Under the pieces are notes generated by a model. It was not told where the DNA came from, did no database searches, and was given only the letters and a program-made list of their open reading frames with translations. Shown here piece after piece: positions 10,435-16,510 of a stretch of 64,000 nt of DNA; the first letter of the stretch is position 1, and the number at the start of each line of letters is the position of its first letter. The stretch is from a virus: the UHGV virus genome UHGV-1378817; one strand, 5' to 3'. A program made the position numbers and the translations under genes.

Positions 10435-10704
10435 TTATCGAGGCACTCGGTGGATGATTCTAACAGTAACTGCATTTTCATTCATCAAGTATGCATCTAC
10501 ATCTCTGTAAATATAAAACTTCTGCTCACTATCAACAACACAAGCTACCGCCCCTTCAGAGTTGTCTTCAAAAAAGACCACCACTGCATCGCAGCTGAGT
10601 TCATGATATGACTCTCGAAGATTTACAGCCAGAGGATTGAAATCGTCACGAAAATCTACGGTATGGGTTGGATTTACACGCTCTACAATTTTAAGTGTAT
10701 ACAT
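10435..10704 (-). CDS. hypothetical protein
   Basis: ORF track 10435-10794 runs into tRNA-Pro; trimmed to ATG at 10704 (MYTLKIV...) with AAGGA SD. Confidence 0.4.
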   Translation of the reverse strand: MYTLKIVERVNPTHTVDFRDDFNPLAVNLRESYHELSCDAVVVFFEDNSEGAVACVVDSEQKFYIYRDVDAYLMNENAVTVRIIHRVPR

Positions 10705-10750
10705 TTTAAAGGTTCCTTTTGTTTGTATATGTTTAAAGTATAACTGAAAG

Positions 10751-10827
10751 TGGTCTCCACGGAGTGATTCGAACACTCGACCTCCTGATCCCAAATCAGG
10801 CGCTCTACCAAGCTGAGCTACGCGGAG
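10751..10827 (-). tRNA. tRNA-Pro (anticodon UGG)
   Basis: Cloverleaf read by hand: 7-bp acceptor, D arm GCTC/GAGC, anticodon arm CCTGA-TTTGGGA-TCAGG, T loop TTCGAAT, encoded CCA. Confidence 0.8.
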
Positions 10828-10838
10828 TATTTATTATT

Positions 10839-10913
10839 TGGTGGCCCTGGGTGGAATTGAACCACCGTCTGGCGATTATGAGTCGCTTGCTTGAACCTTC
10901 CAGCTACAGGGCC
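10839..10913 (-). tRNA. tRNA-Met or Ile2 (anticodon CAU)
   Basis: Acceptor GGCCCTG/CAGGGCC, anticodon arm GCGA-CTCATAA-TCGC, T loop TTCAATT, encoded CCA. Confidence 0.7.
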
Positions 10914-10914
10914 A

Positions 10915-10990
10915 TGGTGCTGATAGCAGGACTCGAACCTGCAACCTATTGATTACAAATCAATTGCACTACCAATTGTGCTACATCAGC
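10915..10990 (-). tRNA. tRNA-Thr (anticodon UGU)
   Basis: Acceptor GCTGATG, D arm GCAC/GTGC, anticodon arm ATTGA-TTTGTAA-TCAAT, T loop TTCGAGT, CCA. Confidence 0.75.
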
Positions 10991-10995
10991 AAAAA

Positions 10996-11094
10996 GGTGC
11001 TAGGTGATGGAATCGAACCACCTATGTATTCAACGACTACCTCGTCTATTTTCAGGATTAAAAATCCTCGCCCTTGCCAAAGGGCTTACCTAGC
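10996..11094 (-). tRNA. atypical long tRNA-like element (~99 nt; anticodon loop reads UUU with 4-bp stem; long extra arm)
   Basis: Acceptor GCTAGGT/ACCTAGC and canonical T arm GGTGG-TTCGATT-CCATC are clear; anticodon arm and a 30-nt variable region are non-canonical; 3' end ACC not CCA. Confidence 0.35.
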
Positions 11095-11192
11095 TCAGTA
11101 TGTTGACCATGTTGCTAGTCGGCGATGACGACTGTAACATTTGATAATCCGGTTCTGCTTCCGGCTTTCGCTTAATTACAAGGTCAACAATA

Positions 11193-11283
11193 TGGCTGAG
11201 GGTAATGGAATCGAACCATCATCGAGTCATCCTCAACGGGACGGTTTTCAAGACCGCTTGAGCACCATTGCTCCCTACCCTCA
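11193..11283 (-). tRNA. tRNA-Ser (anticodon UGA), type II
   Basis: Acceptor TGAGGGT/ACCCTCA, 3-bp D stem, anticodon arm GCGGT-CTTGAAA-ACCGT, long variable arm, T loop TTCGATT, CCA. Confidence 0.75.
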
Positions 11284-11397
11284 TTTATAAACAATACTGA
11301 TAATGACACTGATTTTCGAGCAGTTAGTGACTAGTATAAACGACGATAAATATCAATGCCATTATCTGTATGATTTATGCATTTAAAACTATAAATT

Positions 11398-11484
11398 TGG
11401 TGGGGAGTGGTGGAGTCGAACCACCCGAGTCGCAATGACAATAGATTTACAGTCTACACCGCTACCTCTACGGGATAACTCCCC
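11398..11484 (-). tRNA. tRNA-Tyr (anticodon GUA), type II
   Basis: Acceptor GGGGAGT/ACTCCCC, anticodon arm GTAGA-CTGTAAA-TCTAT, variable arm, T loop TTCGACT, CCA. Confidence 0.75.
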
Positions 11485-11488
11485 AATT

Positions 11489-11563
11489 TGGCACCCCGTA
11501 CTGGACTCGAACCAGTGTCAACGGCTTAGAAGGCCGCTGCTTTATCCACTAAGCTAACAGGGC
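11489..11563 (-). tRNA. tRNA-Arg (anticodon UCU)
   Basis: Acceptor GCCCTGT/ACGGGGT (two G-U pairs), D arm GCTT/AAGC, anticodon arm GCGGC-CTTCTAA-GCCGT, T arm ACTGG-TTCGAGT-CCAGT, CCA. Confidence 0.7.
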
Positions 11564-11659
11564 ACTGGGTGGCTTTCTTTTACACCTTAGCCGCCAGAAA
11601 AGGTGGGAGACCATGTTTACAATATTACACTGTTAAGCAAAGTTTGTCAAGAAAATATT

Positions 11660-14501: not shown

Positions 14502-15056
14502 TTACTCCCCGCTGTCAATAGCAAGACTCATTGCAATACTGTATGCCTCTTCTAATGGTAAGAGTCTACCCCACACATCCCAACCGACATCAAACTGCCT
14601 GCCAAACAACTGTTGTGTGGTTCCGTGAGCATGACCGAACAGTTGTACTGATCCGTGAGGCTTTCTGTTCCACTTTGCAAACTGGTAATGGCTCATACAG
14701 ATCAAATTCTTGTTGTGGCGAAGCTCGTAATAATCTACAACCTCATGATAGAACTCTTTCATAATTCTGACAGTCGTCCTTGTGTCATGGTTGCCACGAA
14801 CAAGAATAATATGTCCGTTCAACATATTTAGAATATCTGGAAGTAAGTTGTTGATATTTTTATCAGTAGTGCACGCAATATCTCCCAAGTGGAACACAGT
14901 GTCTGCAGGTGACACAACAGAGTTCCACTCGGCGATGATTCCCGCATTCATACTGTCAAGATTGTGATCATACTGAGATCTGTGTTTTTGACATGAATCA
15001 AACTCCATGACCCGCTGGTGGAGAAAGTGTGTGTCGCTTGTTACAAAGTATTTCAT
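14502..15056 (-). CDS. calcineurin-like metallophosphoesterase (candidate 2',3'-phosphatase/phosphoesterase)
   Basis: ORF track trimmed to ATG 15056 (MKYFVTSDTHF...) with GAGGA SD; motifs SDTHF (D-x-H), LGDIA (GD), GNHD, GHAHG. Confidence 0.7.
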   Translation of the reverse strand: MKYFVTSDTHFLHQRVMEFDSCQKHRSQYDHNLDSMNAGIIAEWNSVVSPADTVFHLGDIACTTDKNINNLLPDILNMLNGHIILVRGNHDTRTTVRIMKEFYHEVVDYYELRHNKNLICMSHYQFAKWNRKPHGSVQLFGHAHGTTQQLFGRQFDVGWDVWGRLLPLEEAYSIAMSLAIDSGE

Positions 15057-15063
15057 ACATTCC

Positions 15064-15474
15064 TCATTTAAGTTTAATGCAGTTTTTAAGCTGGCGTTCC
15101 ATACGATCCACAACCCTGTCTGGAACATCATGAATGCTTTTATTACCGTGTCGGTTTTCAACCACGATTACGGTATAATTATACCCATGGCTGATTGCCA
15201 TGTCAACATATTCTTGCACATGTTTTTCTTTTGTAAACGTATTACTTACCACGATACGGTCGTATCCCATACGCATCATATCTTCTACGTTATCTTTGCA
15301 CCATTTTGCTGCAAGTGTTACTTTACTTGCATCCCAGTTGTAATTGCCGTCATCGTCGTACCAGAACATGTCGTTCTCAAAATGTGGATACAGACCTTCT
15401 AAAGATAGCGCATTTGCCAGTGTTGATTTGCCAGACCCTGGTAGACCACGCACGATATATAGCATTTTAGACAT
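15064..15474 (-). CDS. polynucleotide kinase-like P-loop kinase
   Basis: Trimmed to ATG 15474 (MSKMLYIV...) with GGAGG SD; Walker A GLPGSGKST; layout resembles T4 Pnk kinase domain (IVVSNTF..., VPDRVVDRM). Confidence 0.6.
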   Translation of the reverse strand: MSKMLYIVRGLPGSGKSTLANALSLEGLYPHFENDMFWYDDDGNYNWDASKVTLAAKWCKDNVEDMMRMGYDRIVVSNTFTKEKHVQEYVDMAISHGYNYTVIVVENRHGNKSIHDVPDRVVDRMERQLKNCIKLK

Positions 15475-15592
15475 AGTAATCCTCCGTTTTAATTTCAAAG
15501 ATAGTATACCTAACTGTTTTGTTAATTTCAAGTGTTGACACTAGGTTATTTGTGTGGCAGGATAGACTGACAAAATGACAAATGAGGAACGT

Positions 15593-16510
15593 ATGATGAA
15601 GTATTTTAATGCAGACGACCTAGTTGACAAAGGTCTTGTAACCAGTAGATATTACCCAGATCTTGGGTTAAAGATCTATAAATACGCCAGAAAAGTATTT
15701 TACAACAATTTATGGCATTTGTCCCCTCGTTTACTGGAGTGCCGAGGCATTGTTGTCGGTAATGAAGGAAATGTTGTGGCATGGCCCTTCACAAAAGTGT
15801 TTAACTTGGGAGAAAACTCCACCAACCTGCCTGACAATAAGCTTGTGACGGCGGTAGAGAAAAAGAACGGATTCCTTGGTGTGGTATCATCTCATAAAGG
15901 TGAACTATTGTTCTCAACAACCGGATCTCTTGATTCTCCATATTGTAACCTTGCAAAGGAAACCATCCAGGAGCAATGCGGTAATTTAGATCTTATCAAG
16001 AAGGTTATGGGCAATGAAAACATGACATTCATGTTTGAAATTTGTCACCCTTCAGATCCGCATATTGTTCAGGAAGATCATGGCGCATATTTGATAGGTT
16101 GCAGGTATAATGATTCTGGAATAATGCTACCAGAGGCAGCTTTAGATGGGATTGCCAAATACCTTGGTGCAAAACGTCCTCACACTGTGCGTGAAATTCC
16201 GTTCAGCTATGCAAAAGAATTGGCTGCAGAAACAAGAGGTGAAGGGTATATGATTCGTAAGCCTTACTATCCTTATGATCTGCAGCTGAAGATCAAGTCT
16301 CCATACTATCTGGCACGGAAGGCCGTAATGAGGGGTAAAGCTTGGAAGATTTGGGATGATGATATCTTTAAACGTGTTGACGAAGAGTTTTACGGCATGG
16401 TAAACTTCATTCGCAACAACTACACAGAGGATGTATGGAACTGCCTCCTGGAGCAGGAACGCCGTGAGATACTTGACTACTATTTCCACAACGAGGACTA
16501 TATGCAATGA
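15593..16510 (+). CDS. RNA ligase-like nucleotidyltransferase
   Basis: Motif I K-x-N-G (EKKNGFLG), motif IV EGYMIRK, motif V LKIKSP; start moved to ATG 15593 with GAGGA SD; divergent from kinase/phosphatase pair. Confidence 0.55.
   Translation: MMKYFNADDLVDKGLVTSRYYPDLGLKIYKYARKVFYNNLWHLSPRLLECRGIVVGNEGNVVAWPFTKVFNLGENSTNLPDNKLVTAVEKKNGFLGVVSSHKGELLFSTTGSLDSPYCNLAKETIQEQCGNLDLIKKVMGNENMTFMFEICHPSDPHIVQEDHGAYLIGCRYNDSGIMLPEAALDGIAKYLGAKRPHTVREIPFSYAKELAAETRGEGYMIRKPYYPYDLQLKIKSPYYLARKAVMRGKAWKIWDDDIFKRVDEEFYGMVNFIRNNYTEDVWNCLLEQERREILDYYFHNEDYMQ

What the first reader, a model, noticed from the sequence alone, without database searches (positions are those of the whole stretch)
10996..11094. 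Atypical ~99-nt tRNA-like element with canonical acceptor and T arms but aberrant anticodon and extra arms
The 7-bp acceptor stem (GCTAGGT/ACCTAGC) and T arm (GGTGG-TTCGATT-CCATC) are textbook. The anticodon arm, however, can only be drawn with a 4-bp stem and loop TTTTTAA (reading UUU), and about 30 nt lie between it and the T arm, longer than normal type II variable arms. The 3' end encodes ACC rather than CCA. It could be a suppressor or decoy tRNA, a tRNA with an insertion, or a tRNA-derived regulatory RNA.
Basis: seen in the sequence. Interest (0 to 1): 0.5.

Follow-up and report, generated by a model that had tools for sequence, protein, structure and literature searches.

The report
Conserved odd long-arm phage tRNA
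This is a real 99-nt tRNA-shaped RNA gene in the tRNA operon of an rV5-like coliphage: it belongs to a strongly conserved, functionally uncharacterised family found only in Vequintavirinae phages, it carries a lysine-type anticodon loop here, and it may help the phage cope with host enzymes that cut tRNAs.

Summary
The gene lies on the minus strand (11094 to 10996) between tRNA-Ser and tRNA-Thr in a seven-gene tRNA operon of an rV5-like phage. It has a 7-bp acceptor stem and a textbook T arm. The anticodon stem has 4 bp and the loop is UUUUUAA. A 31-nt variable region follows, and the 3' end is A73-CC.

It is not a one-off. About 30 distinct homologues occur in five Vequintavirinae genera and in metagenome contigs. 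None was found in bacterial genomes. All 21 tested pairs stay paired across 26 sequences, 12 through changes on both sides. These include the tertiary D-loop/T-loop pair (G19:C56 becomes U19:A56). Two single-stranded linkers flanking the extra hairpin are nearly invariant.

The anticodon differs by genus: UUU, UAU, UCA or NCC. In Mydovirus only loop positions 33 and 34 vary.

My best reading (confidence about 0.4) is a non-canonical tRNA. In rV5 it would be Lys-type (UUU plus A73) and replace host tRNA-Lys when defence nucleases cut it. An RNA-repair gene trio lies 3.4-5.5 kb away.

A non-decoding decoy is a serious rival. No paper describing the element was found.

Verdict: a new variant of a known kind, of moderate to high interest.

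The parts
10996..11094 (-). Whole tRNA-like gene: 97-nt body (G1 to A73) plus encoded C74 and C75
   Evidence: ARAGORN. Rfam tRNA 35.5 bits. Cloverleaf minimum-free-energy fold, z = -3.66. Family model R1 scores it 101.5 bits.
11088..11094 (-). Acceptor stem 5' strand GCUAGGU; pairs with 10999-11005
   Evidence: 7 pairs, 100% paired in 26 homologues, 5 of the 7 with changes on both sides.
11070..11087 (-). A8 A9 plus the D arm GCCC-UUUGGCAA-GGGC. It can also be drawn as a 6-bp stem with tetraloop UGGC, as in tRNA-Sec and allo-tRNA. A8 and U14 replace the usual U8 and A14.
   Evidence: D stem: 3 of 4 pairs covary. The minimum-free-energy fold draws 6 bp plus a 4-nt loop. D-loop G19 covaries with T-loop C56 (G:C in 15 sequences, U:A in 11).
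11054..11069 (-). G26 plus the short anticodon arm AGGA-UUUUUAA-UCCU (U33, anticodon UUU, A37, A38)
   Evidence: Sequence. cmscan needs position 27 deleted. 4 pairs stay paired in all homologues, 2 of them with double changes. The loop is invariant in 6 distinct Vequintavirus variants.
11047..11053 (-). 5' linker GAAAAUA (single-stranded; GAAAA is invariant in the family)
   Evidence: Invariant columns in alignment A1; segment table.
11032..11046 (-). Extra-arm hairpin G-ACGA-GGUAG-UCGU-U
   Evidence: Predicted hairpin in every member, with length and sequence differing between genera. ACGA/UCGU here becomes ACGG/CCGU in Avunavirus, a compensatory change.
11023..11031 (-). 3' linker GAAUACAUA (AUACAUA is invariant in the family)
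   Evidence: Invariant columns in A1. Used as the search motif that found only Vequintavirinae-type contigs.
11006..11022 (-). T arm GGUGG-UUCGAUU-CCAUC
   Evidence: It is close to the T arm of the phage's own tRNA-Ser (GAUGG-UUCGAUU-CCAUU).
10996..11005 (-). Acceptor 3' strand ACCUAGC, discriminator A73, then C74 and C75. Next come UUUUU and G1 of tRNA-Thr.
   Evidence: Other genera encode U73-CCA; Avunavirus has U/C73-ACA.
10751..11650 (-). The tRNA operon that holds the element. Promoter-like TTGACA-17-TAATAT at 11650-11622, then Arg(UCU), Tyr(GUA), Ser(UGA), the element, Thr(UGU), Met(CAU), Pro(UGG).
   Evidence: ARAGORN. Promoter scan. The same promoter is annotated P(tRNA) in the rV5 RefSeq record.
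14502..16510 (.). Context only: a trio of RNA-repair-type genes 3.4-5.5 kb from the element. Metallophosphoesterase 14502-15161(-), P-loop kinase 15064-15531(-), Rnl1-type RNA ligase 15575-16510(+).
   Evidence: Pfam Metallophos 1.2e-6, AAA_33 1.1e-10, RNA_lig_T4_1 6.4e-15. PHROG phosphoesterase, polynucleotide kinase and RNA ligase families. rV5 annotation.

Best explanation
Shown: the element is a functional, tRNA-shaped RNA gene of a family restricted to Vequintavirinae phages. It sits inside the phage's sigma-70-driven tRNA operon. It keeps an L-shaped tRNA core: a 7/5 acceptor-T branch, a D arm, and the D-loop/T-loop pair.

Inferred (maturation):
- RNase P cuts the 5' end out of the polycistronic precursor.
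- Exonucleases trim the UUUUU trailer.
- The host CCA-adding enzyme adds the final A.

Inferred (function in the rV5 lineage):
- The canonical Lys-type loop (U33-UUU-A37-A38) together with A73 lets LysRS charge it.
- It then supplies AAA/AAG decoding when the host's single tRNA-Lys(UUU) species is destroyed by anticodon-arm nucleases such as PrrC, RloC or PARIS AriB.
- Its short GC-rich anticodon stem and unusual body make it a poor nuclease substrate.
- The nearby kinase, phosphoesterase and Rnl1 ligase genes would be a second line of defence.
- The ultraconserved linkers around the extra arm stabilise the unusual core or bind an unknown partner.
For: - Real and structured: Rfam tRNA 35.5 bits against a gathering score of 29; fold z = -3.66.
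- Covariation: across 26 distinct homologues, 100% of 543 pair cells are paired. 12 of 21 pairs change on both sides, with 0 of 500 shuffles matching. Slid controls pair in only 32-45% of cells. The tertiary 19:56 pair switches G:C to U:A.
- Distinct family: members score 97-117 bits on family model R1. Every other match to intact tRNA genes, the phage Ser, Tyr and Leu included, scores 23 bits or less, and there is one copy per genome.
- Very strong purifying selection: Mydovirus copies are identical at 107 of 109 nt, while the flanking 300 nt upstream (which hold tRNA genes) differ by about 6-20%.
- Operon context with a promoter.
- Lys reading: the loop UUUUUAA differs from the E. coli tRNA-Lys loop CUUUUAA only at position 32 (one search confirms the host sequence). 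The loop is invariant in the rV5 lineage, and the discriminator is A only in the lineage that has UUU. A73 plus U34-U36 is the established E. coli LysRS identity set (textbook knowledge).
- Some GenBank records (BASEL phages and others) name it tRNA-Lys.
- Codon supply is an unlikely reason. E. coli has a median of 6 tRNA-Lys copies per genome.
- Precedents: T5 tRNA-Lys(UUU) resists AriB (PMC11464382). Phage tRNA-Lys genes rescue cells from AriB toxicity, and phage tRNA-Thr genes resist P2-OLD partly through a shortened anticodon stem (PMC12445682).
- Thr(UGU), Tyr(GUA) and Pro(UGG) of this operon match tRNAs reported as nuclease targets.
- The RNA-repair trio lies 3.4-5.5 kb away.
Against: - No decoder is known with a 4-bp anticodon stem lacking nucleotide 27, A8/U14, and a 31-nt variable region on 7-nt and 9-nt single-stranded linkers.
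- LysRS is a class II enzyme that faces the variable-region side of the tRNA, so the extra arm could clash with it.
- Homologues in sister genera have loops a decoder should not have: A33 or C33, and a 6- or 8-nt loop.
- In Mydovirus, positions 33 and 34 are the only free positions in the RNA.
- Those phages also carry a canonical tRNA-Gly(UCC).
- The family-wide conservation therefore points to a role that does not depend on which codon is read.
- The LL12 record notes an inconsistent tRNAscan-SE isotype.
- V18 and O157 typing phage 4 have lost the gene, so it is dispensable at least on some hosts.
- No expression, charging or nuclease data exist.
Confidence: 0.4

Rival explanations
1. A non-decoding tRNA mimic, either a decoy or a pseudo-substrate. 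The RNA is matured like a tRNA but is not used by the ribosome. It binds, and so titrates or blocks, a host tRNA-targeting defence nuclease or toxin. The anticodon loop is the exchangeable specificity module, and the conserved extra-arm linkers provide tight binding or resistance to cleavage.
For: - The whole body, including the unpaired linkers and the extra-arm loop, is more conserved than the neighbouring tRNA genes. The loop differs between genera (UUU, UAU, UCA, NCC).
- Within Mydovirus only positions 33 and 34 vary (AU, CG, CA, UU, plus CU and AG in relatives). These positions flank the PrrC/RloC cut site.
- Loops with A33 or C33 and of 6 or 8 nt are incompatible with normal decoding.
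- Seunavirus and Mydovirus have a canonical tRNA-Gly(UCC) as well.
- A second atypical tRNA with an equally variable anticodon arm lies just upstream in those phages.
Against: - No decoy tRNA turned up in the defence papers read here. The established counter-measures are resistant tRNAs and RNA repair.
- A stoichiometric decoy must out-compete thousands of host tRNAs for a catalytic enzyme.
- In the rV5 lineage the loop is a perfectly canonical, invariant Lys loop with a matching A73. A decoy does not need a matching discriminator.
- With flanks this diverged, variation at positions 33 and 34 could be simple lack of constraint rather than an arms race.
Confidence: 0.25
2. An allo-tRNA-like or tRNA-Sec-like recoding tRNA. 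SerRS would charge it through the long extra arm regardless of the anticodon, so it would insert Ser at Lys codons (and at Ile, Gly or UGA codons in other genera). Alternatively it acts as a regulatory RNA, as proposed for allo-tRNAs.
For: - The D arm can form a 6-bp stem with a tetraloop, which is the tRNA-Sec/allo-tRNA signature (PMC5389517).
- It has a long extra arm.
- U73 is present in most genera, and the allo-tRNA paper counts G73 or U73 plus a long V arm as SerRS elements.
- Anticodons vary on one scaffold, as in allo-tRNAs.
- Several lineages carry UCA in a YAUCAAA loop, close to the tRNA-Sec loop CUUCAAA as I recall it. GenBank labels some of them 'tRNA-TERM'.
Against: - The acceptor/T branch is 7/5, not 8/5, 8/4 or 9/3. 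An eighth acceptor pair cannot form, because it would be an A:C mismatch (sequence).
- The window copy has A73, and pair 2:71 is C:G rather than the G:C of E. coli tRNA-Ser.
- The extra hairpin hangs on 7-nt and 9-nt linkers, whereas SerRS reads an arm that leaves the core directly.
- Genome-wide Lys-to-Ser mistranslation would harm the phage.
- The 6-bp D stem cannot be tested, because its two extra pairs never vary.
Confidence: 0.1
3. A purely cis-acting processing module. A former tRNA is kept only because its acceptor/T half gives RNase P a cut site that releases the neighbouring tRNAs from the polycistronic precursor. The product itself would have no role in trans.
For: - In most genera it starts 2 nt after the CCA of the preceding tRNA.
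- The best-kept canonical parts are the RNase P determinants: the acceptor stem, the T arm and the 19:56 pair.
- The anticodon loop is the least constrained part in Mydovirus.
- The gene is dispensable in V18 and in typing phage 4.
Against: - It does not explain the near-invariant linkers, extra-arm loop, D arm and anticodon stem, which RNase P does not need.
- It does not explain the invariant Lys loop and the A73 switch in the rV5 lineage.
- Adjacent canonical tRNAs in the same operons process each other without such a module.
Confidence: 0.1
4. A decaying tRNA pseudogene or a chance cloverleaf.
For: Some GenBank records label it tRNA-Pseudo or tRNA-OTHER. The Rfam score is low.
Against: 100% pairing with 12 doubly changed pairs, and identity at 107 of 109 nt among diverged phages. 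This is incompatible with neutral decay.
Confidence: 0.02

Closest known systems
Nuclease-resistant phage tRNAs, such as T5 tRNA-Lys(UUU) against PARIS AriB and phage tRNA-Thr(UGU) against P2-OLD
   Same: It is phage-encoded and sits in a tRNA cluster. Its anticodon is that of the classic nuclease target, Lys UUU. Its anticodon arm differs from the host's, and a shortened anticodon stem is a documented resistance feature (PMC12445682; PMC11464382).
   Different: Those tRNAs are otherwise canonical class I tRNAs of about 76 nt with experimentally shown function. This one lacks nucleotide 27, has A8/U14, carries a 31-nt variable region with conserved linkers, and has no experimental data.
tRNA-Sec and allo-tRNAs (Mukai et al., PMC5389517)
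   Same: It has a long extra arm. The D arm can be drawn as a 6-bp stem plus tetraloop. One scaffold carries many different anticodons, including UCA. U73 is present in most genera.
   Different: The acceptor/T branch is 7/5, not 8/5, 8/4 or 9/3. The anticodon stem is shorter, not longer. The extra hairpin is held on long conserved single strands. The window copy has UUU and A73.
Bacterial class II tRNAs (Ser, Leu, Tyr), including this phage's own tRNA-Ser and tRNA-Tyr
   Same: It has an extra-arm hairpin. Its T arm is close to those of the phage tRNA-Ser and tRNA-Tyr. These and tRNA-Leu are the next-best intact tRNAs for the family model, at 20-23 bits. Recombination between its T arm and that of tRNA-Tyr produced the V18 and typing-phage-4 deletions.
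   Different: The variable region is 31-41 nt, against 13-22 nt as I recall for class II tRNAs. Linkers of 7 and 9 nt replace the usual 1-3 nt. The anticodons are not Ser, Leu or Tyr. The anticodon arm has 15-16 nt.
Nematode nev-tRNAs: V-arm tRNAs with Gly(CCC) or Ile(UAU) anticodons (Hamashima et al., cited in PMC5389517; details from my own knowledge)
   Same: A class II-type body carries anticodons of amino acids whose normal tRNAs are class I. This family also uses Gly and Ile anticodons.
   Different: Those are eukaryotic, Leu-accepting and have canonical anticodon arms. There is no sequence relationship.
Phage T4 stable RNAs species 1 and 2 (RNA C and RNA D) in the T4 tRNA cluster (my own knowledge)
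   Same: They are small stable RNAs of unknown function, co-transcribed and co-processed with phage tRNAs.
   Different: No sequence or structure comparison was made here. They do not form a full cloverleaf with an anticodon arm.

Membership tests
Canonical tRNA (Rfam RF00005) | Score at or above the curated gathering score | tested here: met
   35.5 bits against 29 for the window copy. Homologues in Avunavirus, Seunavirus, Mydovirus and Henunavirus do not reach it, and ARAGORN misses them.
Canonical tRNA (Rfam RF00005) | 7-bp acceptor stem, 5-bp T stem, 7-nt T loop UUCRANY, D-loop/T-loop G19:C56 pair | tested here: met
   All are present. All pairs are kept in 26 homologues, and 19:56 covaries G:C to U:A.
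Canonical tRNA (Rfam RF00005) | 17-nt anticodon arm (5 bp plus a 7-nt loop with U33) | tested here: not met
   The arm has 15 nt (4 bp plus 7 nt, or 5 bp plus 5 nt), and cmscan deletes position 27. The loop itself is canonical here (U33, A37). In other genera it has A33 or C33 and 6 or 8 nt.
Canonical tRNA (Rfam RF00005) | U8 and A14; variable region of 4-5 nt (class I) or about 13-22 nt leaving the core directly (class II) | tested here: not met
   A8 and U14 are invariant in the family. The variable region is 31 nt here and up to 41 nt elsewhere, with 7-nt and 9-nt single-stranded linkers.
Canonical tRNA (Rfam RF00005) | Aminoacylation and use on the ribosome | not testable with these tools
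   Needs charging assays, tRNA sequencing and reporter assays.
tRNA-Lys(UUU) | Anticodon UUU with U33, A37 and discriminator A73 (the E. coli LysRS identity set, from textbook knowledge) | tested here: met
   Loop UUUUUAA and A73. The host loop is CUUUUAA (sequence confirmed).
tRNA-Lys(UUU) | Class I body homologous to other tRNA-Lys genes | tested here: not met
   blastn finds no match to any E. coli genome. The LL12 record notes an inconsistent tRNAscan-SE isotype. The body is shared with homologues that carry UAU, UCA and NCC loops.
tRNA-Sec / allo-tRNA | Acceptor/T branch of 8/5 (Sec) or 8/4 or 9/3 (allo) | tested here: not met
   The branch is 7/5 in all members. Position 8 (A) faces C65, so no eighth pair can form.
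tRNA-Sec / allo-tRNA | Long D stem (6 bp) with a tetraloop | tested here: inconclusive
   The minimum-free-energy fold draws GCCCUU-UGGC-AAGGGC. The two extra U:A pairs never vary, so covariation says nothing.
tRNA-Sec / allo-tRNA | Anticodon UCA (Sec), discriminator G73 or U73, long V arm | tested here: not met
   The window copy has UUU and A73. UCA plus U73 occurs in Henunavirus-type members (L009, L020, L042, L048, L051). The long arm is present.
Suppressor tRNA | Anticodon complementary to a stop codon | tested here: not met
   UUU reads AAA and AAG. The 'tRNA-TERM' labels on some rV5-like records come from a different loop register.
tmRNA | tRNA-like domain without an anticodon arm, plus a tag reading frame | tested here: not met
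   ARAGORN reports no tmRNA. The only Rfam match over the element is the tRNA model (one lower-scoring match of the same clan was suppressed and not shown). An anticodon arm is present.
Vequintavirinae long-arm tRNA-like family (defined here, model R1) | G1-C2...G5-G6-U7, A8, D loop UUUG(G/U)YAA, G26, 15-16-nt anticodon arm, GAAAA linker, extra hairpin, AUACAUA linker, T loop UU(C/A)GAUU | tested here: met
   The window copy scores 101.5 bits on R1. Members score 97-117 bits and intact tRNA genes 23 bits or less. The copy was part of the seed alignment, so the score is partly by construction. The gap to other tRNAs is the informative part.

The most novel reading that the evidence does not exclude
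The family could be a new class of phage tRNA mimic. It would be matured by the tRNA machinery but would not be a decoder. Its ultraconserved body (Sec/allo-like D arm, extra hairpin on invariant linkers) would dock onto a host tRNA-targeting immune nuclease or toxin, or onto an unknown phage partner. Its anticodon loop would be a fast-evolving specificity cassette: Lys-like in coliphages, NCC, UCA or UAU elsewhere, with positions 33 and 34 diversifying at the nuclease cut site. That would make it the first RNA decoy against tRNA-directed immunity.
Probability: 0.25. Interest if true: 0.8.

Novelty: new variant of a known kind. Interest (0 to 1): 0.6.

Why it matters
tRNA cleavage is now recognised as a widespread anti-phage strategy (PrrC, RloC, PARIS, P2-OLD, retron effectors, Schlafen, Cas12a3). 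Phage tRNAs are emerging as the counter-measure.

This element is present in well over a hundred sequenced Vequintavirinae phages, including rV5, PVP-SE1, BASEL phages and phage-therapy candidates. Databases label it inconsistently or not at all. It is more conserved than the canonical tRNAs beside it.

- If it is a working tRNA-Lys, it stretches the known structural limits of a decoder: a 4-bp anticodon stem, A8/U14 and a 31-nt variable region. It would also give a new orthogonal scaffold.
- If it is a decoy, it would be a new anti-defence principle.

Either way it is directly testable. Genetically tractable phages and published AriB, PrrC and OLD toxicity-rescue assays already exist.

Tried and rejected
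1. Chance or pseudogene: rejected by the covariation and conservation data.
2. Other Rfam families: a permissive scan of 10980-11200 gave the tRNA model (one lower-scoring same-clan match suppressed) plus one insignificant leader hit.
3. Host origin: the 3' motif has 0 hits in one genome each of 185,579 bacterial and archaeal species. blastn finds nothing in 5,426 complete E. coli genomes.
4. A wider family: three pattern scans of IMG/VR, including relaxed ones, returned only the same contigs, nearly all 84-150 kb. Two further hits (L033, L035) were spurious.
5. An 8/4 or 8/5 acceptor branch: impossible because of an A:C mismatch.
6. Pairing between the two conserved linkers, or between the linkers and the D or anticodon loops: I tried this by eye and found no pairing consistent across genera. 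In the rV5 lineage only, AUUUU of the anticodon arm could pair with the AAAAU of the linker.
7. An internal promoter or terminator as the reason for linker conservation: the scan found only hairpins that belong to the cloverleaf itself.
8. Positive selection at positions 33 and 34: I considered it, but the flanks are so diverged that simple lack of constraint cannot be excluded.
9. Literature: six full-text searches and ten papers read found no description of the element. The supplement listing the 245 coliphage tRNAs screened against AriB is not held, so I do not know whether this gene was in that library.
10. Neighbouring small proteins (phrog_8729, phrog_3330 and others) gave no functional clue.
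Full report
**What is there.** The window is an rV5-like coliphage (genus Vequintavirus). Region 10700-11600 is 99.8% identical to phages APECc02, CM1 and rV5_ev147.

The flagged element reads on the minus strand, from 11094 down to 10996:
GCUAGGU AA GCCC-UUUGGCAA-GGGC G AGGA-UUUUUAA-UCCU GAAAAUA G-ACGA-GGUAG-UCGU-U GAAUACAUA GGUGG-UUCGAUU-CCAUC ACCUAGC A CC.

- ARAGORN reports it at exactly these coordinates as 'tRNA-???'. It lies between tRNA-Ser(UGA) and tRNA-Thr(UGU) in a cluster of Arg, Tyr, Ser, the element, Thr, Met and Pro.
- The Rfam tRNA model matches at 35.5 bits, above the gathering score of 29. It needs position 27 deleted and 26 nt inserted in the variable region.
- The minimum-free-energy fold is the cloverleaf, with z = -3.66.

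'ACC' is the discriminator A73 plus C74 and C75, with the terminal A not encoded.

**Operon context.** A strong promoter-like site, TTGACA-17-TAATAT, lies at 11650-11622(-) upstream of tRNA-Arg. It coincides with the P(tRNA) promoter annotated in the rV5 RefSeq record. No terminator-like site separates the genes, apart from hairpins that are part of the cloverleaf itself. The element is therefore most likely transcribed with the six recognised tRNAs. This is an inference; no transcript data exist.

The rV5 genome paper lists six tRNAs and does not mention this gene (PMC3606486). GenBank records call it tRNA-OTHER, tRNA-Pseudo, tRNA-Lys, tRNA-???(atcc) or tRNA-TERM, or leave it unannotated. The LL12 record adds 'isotype prediction via tRNAscan-SE inconsistent'.

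**It is a family.**
- blastn and motif scans found homologues in Vequintavirus, Avunavirus (Av-05), Seunavirus (PVP-SE1, SSE121, GAP31, KE22), Mydovirus (Mydo, KB57, KPP-1 and others) and Henunavirus (pEp_SNUABM_01).
- They also found 18 metagenome contigs and 13 IMG/VR contigs, nearly all 84-150 kb.
- There are about 30 distinct sequences.
- The 3' motif has no match in one genome each of 185,579 bacterial and archaeal species.
- The element has no blastn match in 5,426 complete E. coli genomes.
- In other genera the homologues score below the Rfam gathering score, and ARAGORN misses them. This explains why they are unannotated or overlaid with spurious small CDSs.
- Family covariance model R1 scores members at 97-117 bits, with one copy per genome. 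Every other match to an intact tRNA gene, the phage Ser, Tyr and Leu included, scores 23 bits or less. The deleted hybrid gene in V18 scores 32 bits.

**The structure is selected.** I tested 26 distinct sequences against a cloverleaf of my own definition plus the tertiary 19:56 pair.
- 100% of 543 pair cells are standard pairs.
- 12 of 21 pairs show changes on both sides, and 0 of 500 shuffles reach this.
- Sliding the partners drops pairing to 32-45%.
- D-loop G19 and T-loop C56 switch together to U19 and A56 (15 G:C, 11 U:A). This is direct evidence for the L-shaped D-loop/T-loop contact.
- The extra arm is a hairpin in every member, but its length and sequence differ between genera.

In contrast, several unpaired parts are invariant or nearly so:
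- the strands on either side of the extra hairpin: GAAAA, and AUACAUA just before the T stem;
- A8, U14-U15-U16-G and G26.

Other features of the core:
- The D arm can also be drawn as a 6-bp stem with a tetraloop, as in tRNA-Sec and allo-tRNAs (PMC5389517). The two extra pairs never vary, so this cannot be tested.
- The acceptor/T branch is 7/5 and cannot become 8/4 or 8/5.

**Strength of selection.** Mydovirus-type copies from different phages are identical at 107 of 109 positions. Their flanking 300 nt upstream, which hold tRNA genes, differ by roughly 6-20%. Their downstream flanks differ by 8% or more, or are unrelated. The only variable positions are the two loop nucleotides that correspond to positions 33 and 34:
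- CAUCCA, CCGCCA, CCACCA and CUUCCA among the near-identical copies;
- CCUCCA and CAGCCA in more distant members.

So the whole body, including unpaired segments, is more constrained than the neighbouring tRNA genes. The site that a normal decoder keeps as U33 is free. With flanks this diverged I cannot tell diversifying selection from lack of constraint.

**The anticodon arm differs by genus**.

| Group | Anticodon arm | Anticodon | Discriminator | 3' end |
|---|---|---|---|---|
| Vequintavirus | AGGA-UUUUUAA-UCCU | UUU | A73 | CC (CA in L021) |
| Avunavirus | loop UUUAUAA | UAU | U or C | ACA |
| Henunavirus and three metagenome lineages | GGGC-(C/U)AUCAAA-GCC(C/U) | UCA, with A33 | U73 | CCA |
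| Seunavirus and Mydovirus | AGGUC-CNNCCA-GACCU (6-nt loop, or 4 bp plus 8 nt) | NCC | U73 | CCA |

- The Vequintavirus loop is invariant in 6 distinct variants.
- The discriminator is A only where the anticodon is UUU. A73 plus U34-U36 is the established LysRS identity set.
- U73, G1:C72, C2:G71 and C35-C36 in Seunavirus and Mydovirus are five of the six E. coli GlyRS identity elements. Both identity sets are textbook knowledge, not tested here.
- These combinations suggest the RNAs are charged. But the non-canonical loops, and the presence of a canonical tRNA-Gly(UCC) in the same phages, argue against ordinary decoding in those genera.

**Context that bears on function.**
- The host has a single tRNA-Lys species, with a median of 6 gene copies. 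Codon supplementation is therefore an unlikely reason to encode a Lys tRNA.
- tRNA-Lys(UUU) is the classic target of PrrC. It is also a main target of PARIS AriB, which cuts between positions 40 and 41 of the anticodon stem (PMC11464382 and PMC12409363).
- T5 escapes PARIS with its own uncleavable tRNA-Lys.
- A screen of 245 coliphage tRNAs against AriB enriched only tRNA-Lys(UUU).
- Phage tRNA-Thr genes resist P2-OLD partly by losing an anticodon-stem base pair (PMC12445682).
- Thr(UGU), Tyr(GUA) and Pro(UGG) of this operon are among tRNAs reported as nuclease targets.
- Between 3.4 and 5.5 kb from the element the phage encodes a metallophosphoesterase, a P-loop kinase of polynucleotide-kinase type and an Rnl1-family RNA ligase. 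This is the same kind of toolkit T4 uses to repair PrrC-cut tRNA-Lys (the T4 comparison is my own knowledge).

**Best explanation and rivals.**
- *Best explanation (confidence about 0.4).* The element is a non-canonical but functional tRNA, matured by RNase P, 3' trimming and CCA completion. In the rV5 lineage LysRS would charge it, and it would stand in for host tRNA-Lys when that tRNA is cleaved. Its short GC-rich anticodon stem and unusual body would make it a poor nuclease substrate.
- *Main rival (about 0.25).* The family is a non-decoding tRNA mimic that docks on a tRNA-targeting defence protein, with the anticodon loop as an exchangeable specificity module. This fits the family-wide pattern better: an ultraconserved body, free positions 33 and 34, odd loop sizes and a redundant tRNA-Gly. 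It fits the canonical, invariant Lys loop and the A73 switch of the window copy less well, and it has no precedent.
- *Lesser rivals.* An allo-tRNA-like Ser-accepting recoder (about 0.1) and a cis-acting RNase P punctuation module (about 0.1).
- *Excluded.* Neutral decay.

The remaining probability covers functions I have not thought of.

**Dispensability.** V18 and O157 typing phage 4 carry deletions that fuse the 5' part of tRNA-Tyr to the 3' part of the element through their similar T arms. This destroys the acceptor pairing and removes tRNA-Ser. The gene is therefore not essential on at least some hosts, as expected for an accessory counter-defence gene.

**Verdict.** It is not a suppressor and not a recent insertion. 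I found no paper that describes the family. I classify it as a new variant of a known kind, a non-canonical phage tRNA, with interest of about 0.6.

Noticed in passing
L028:547-640 (phage V18); L029:~560-633 (O157 typing phage 4): Natural deletions fuse the 5' part of tRNA-Tyr to the 3' part of the element, by recombination within or near the similar T arms. The hybrid acceptor stem no longer pairs, and tRNA-Ser and the element's 5' half are lost.
   Followed up: partly
window 11193-11283 (-) and 11398-11484 (-): The phage tRNA-Ser(UGA) is found only by ARAGORN and scores below the Rfam gathering score. It has U1:A72 and A8 instead of U8. tRNA-Tyr barely passes, at 29.9 bits against 29. Several tRNAs of this operon are therefore atypical.
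   Followed up: partly
window 11095-11192 (-) and 11284-11397 (-): The two long spacers in the tRNA operon fold well. The Ser-to-element spacer gives a multibranch, cloverleaf-like fold (GUUGACC...GGUCAAC closing stem, z = -2.6). The Tyr-to-Ser spacer gives a long hairpin (z = -4.2). They could be degenerate tRNAs or processing signals.
   Followed up: partly
L002:1419-1494, L004:1430-1505, L005:1432-1505, L007:1431-1505: In Seunavirus and Mydovirus the gene immediately 5' of the element is a second atypical tRNA. Its acceptor, D and T arms are conserved, but its anticodon arm varies widely (loops AAGAUUC, ACGAUUC, ACGAUA, ACAGAUCC, CUGCGCA). Different records annotate it as Ile, Ser or Arg, and where scanned (L002, L007) it scores below the Rfam gathering score.
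   Followed up: partly
L001:~1795-1885 (phage Av-05): Another unannotated tRNA-like sequence: GGCGGUG ... ACAAGU-CUUCUAA-ACUUGU ... GAGG-UUCGAUU-CCUC CACCGUC U ACCA. It has an acceptor stem, T arm and Arg-type (UCU) anticodon hairpin, but no normal D arm.
   Followed up: no
window 14502-16510: A metallophosphoesterase, a P-loop kinase of polynucleotide-kinase type and an Rnl1-family RNA ligase lie side by side. This is a putative RNA (tRNA) repair module, and in rV5 the ligase is annotated as 'RNA ligase 1 and tail attachment protein'.
   Followed up: partly
GenBank records NC_027351 (SSE121 gp001), PP856721 (CDS0262), NC_048741 (Mydo gp258/gp257), OP558001 (orf079), PQ882504: Short 'hypothetical protein' CDSs are annotated on top of the tRNA-like gene. 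They are almost certainly spurious calls.
   Followed up: no
GenBank MG0656xx 'Campylobacter phage' records (hits H18, H19, H34-H39 and others): Eighteen records labelled Campylobacter phage (most of those listed are 135-143 kb) are 99-100% identical to rV5-like coliphages across this tRNA region. The host labels look doubtful.
   Followed up: no
L009, L008, L010-L013, L036, L040 (extra-arm loop): Henunavirus and many Mydovirus copies share a conserved 12-13-nt extra-arm loop, GAACUAACAGUA, on stems that differ by compensatory changes (GUC/GAC versus GCC/GGC). This suggests the loop itself is a recognition site.
   Followed up: no
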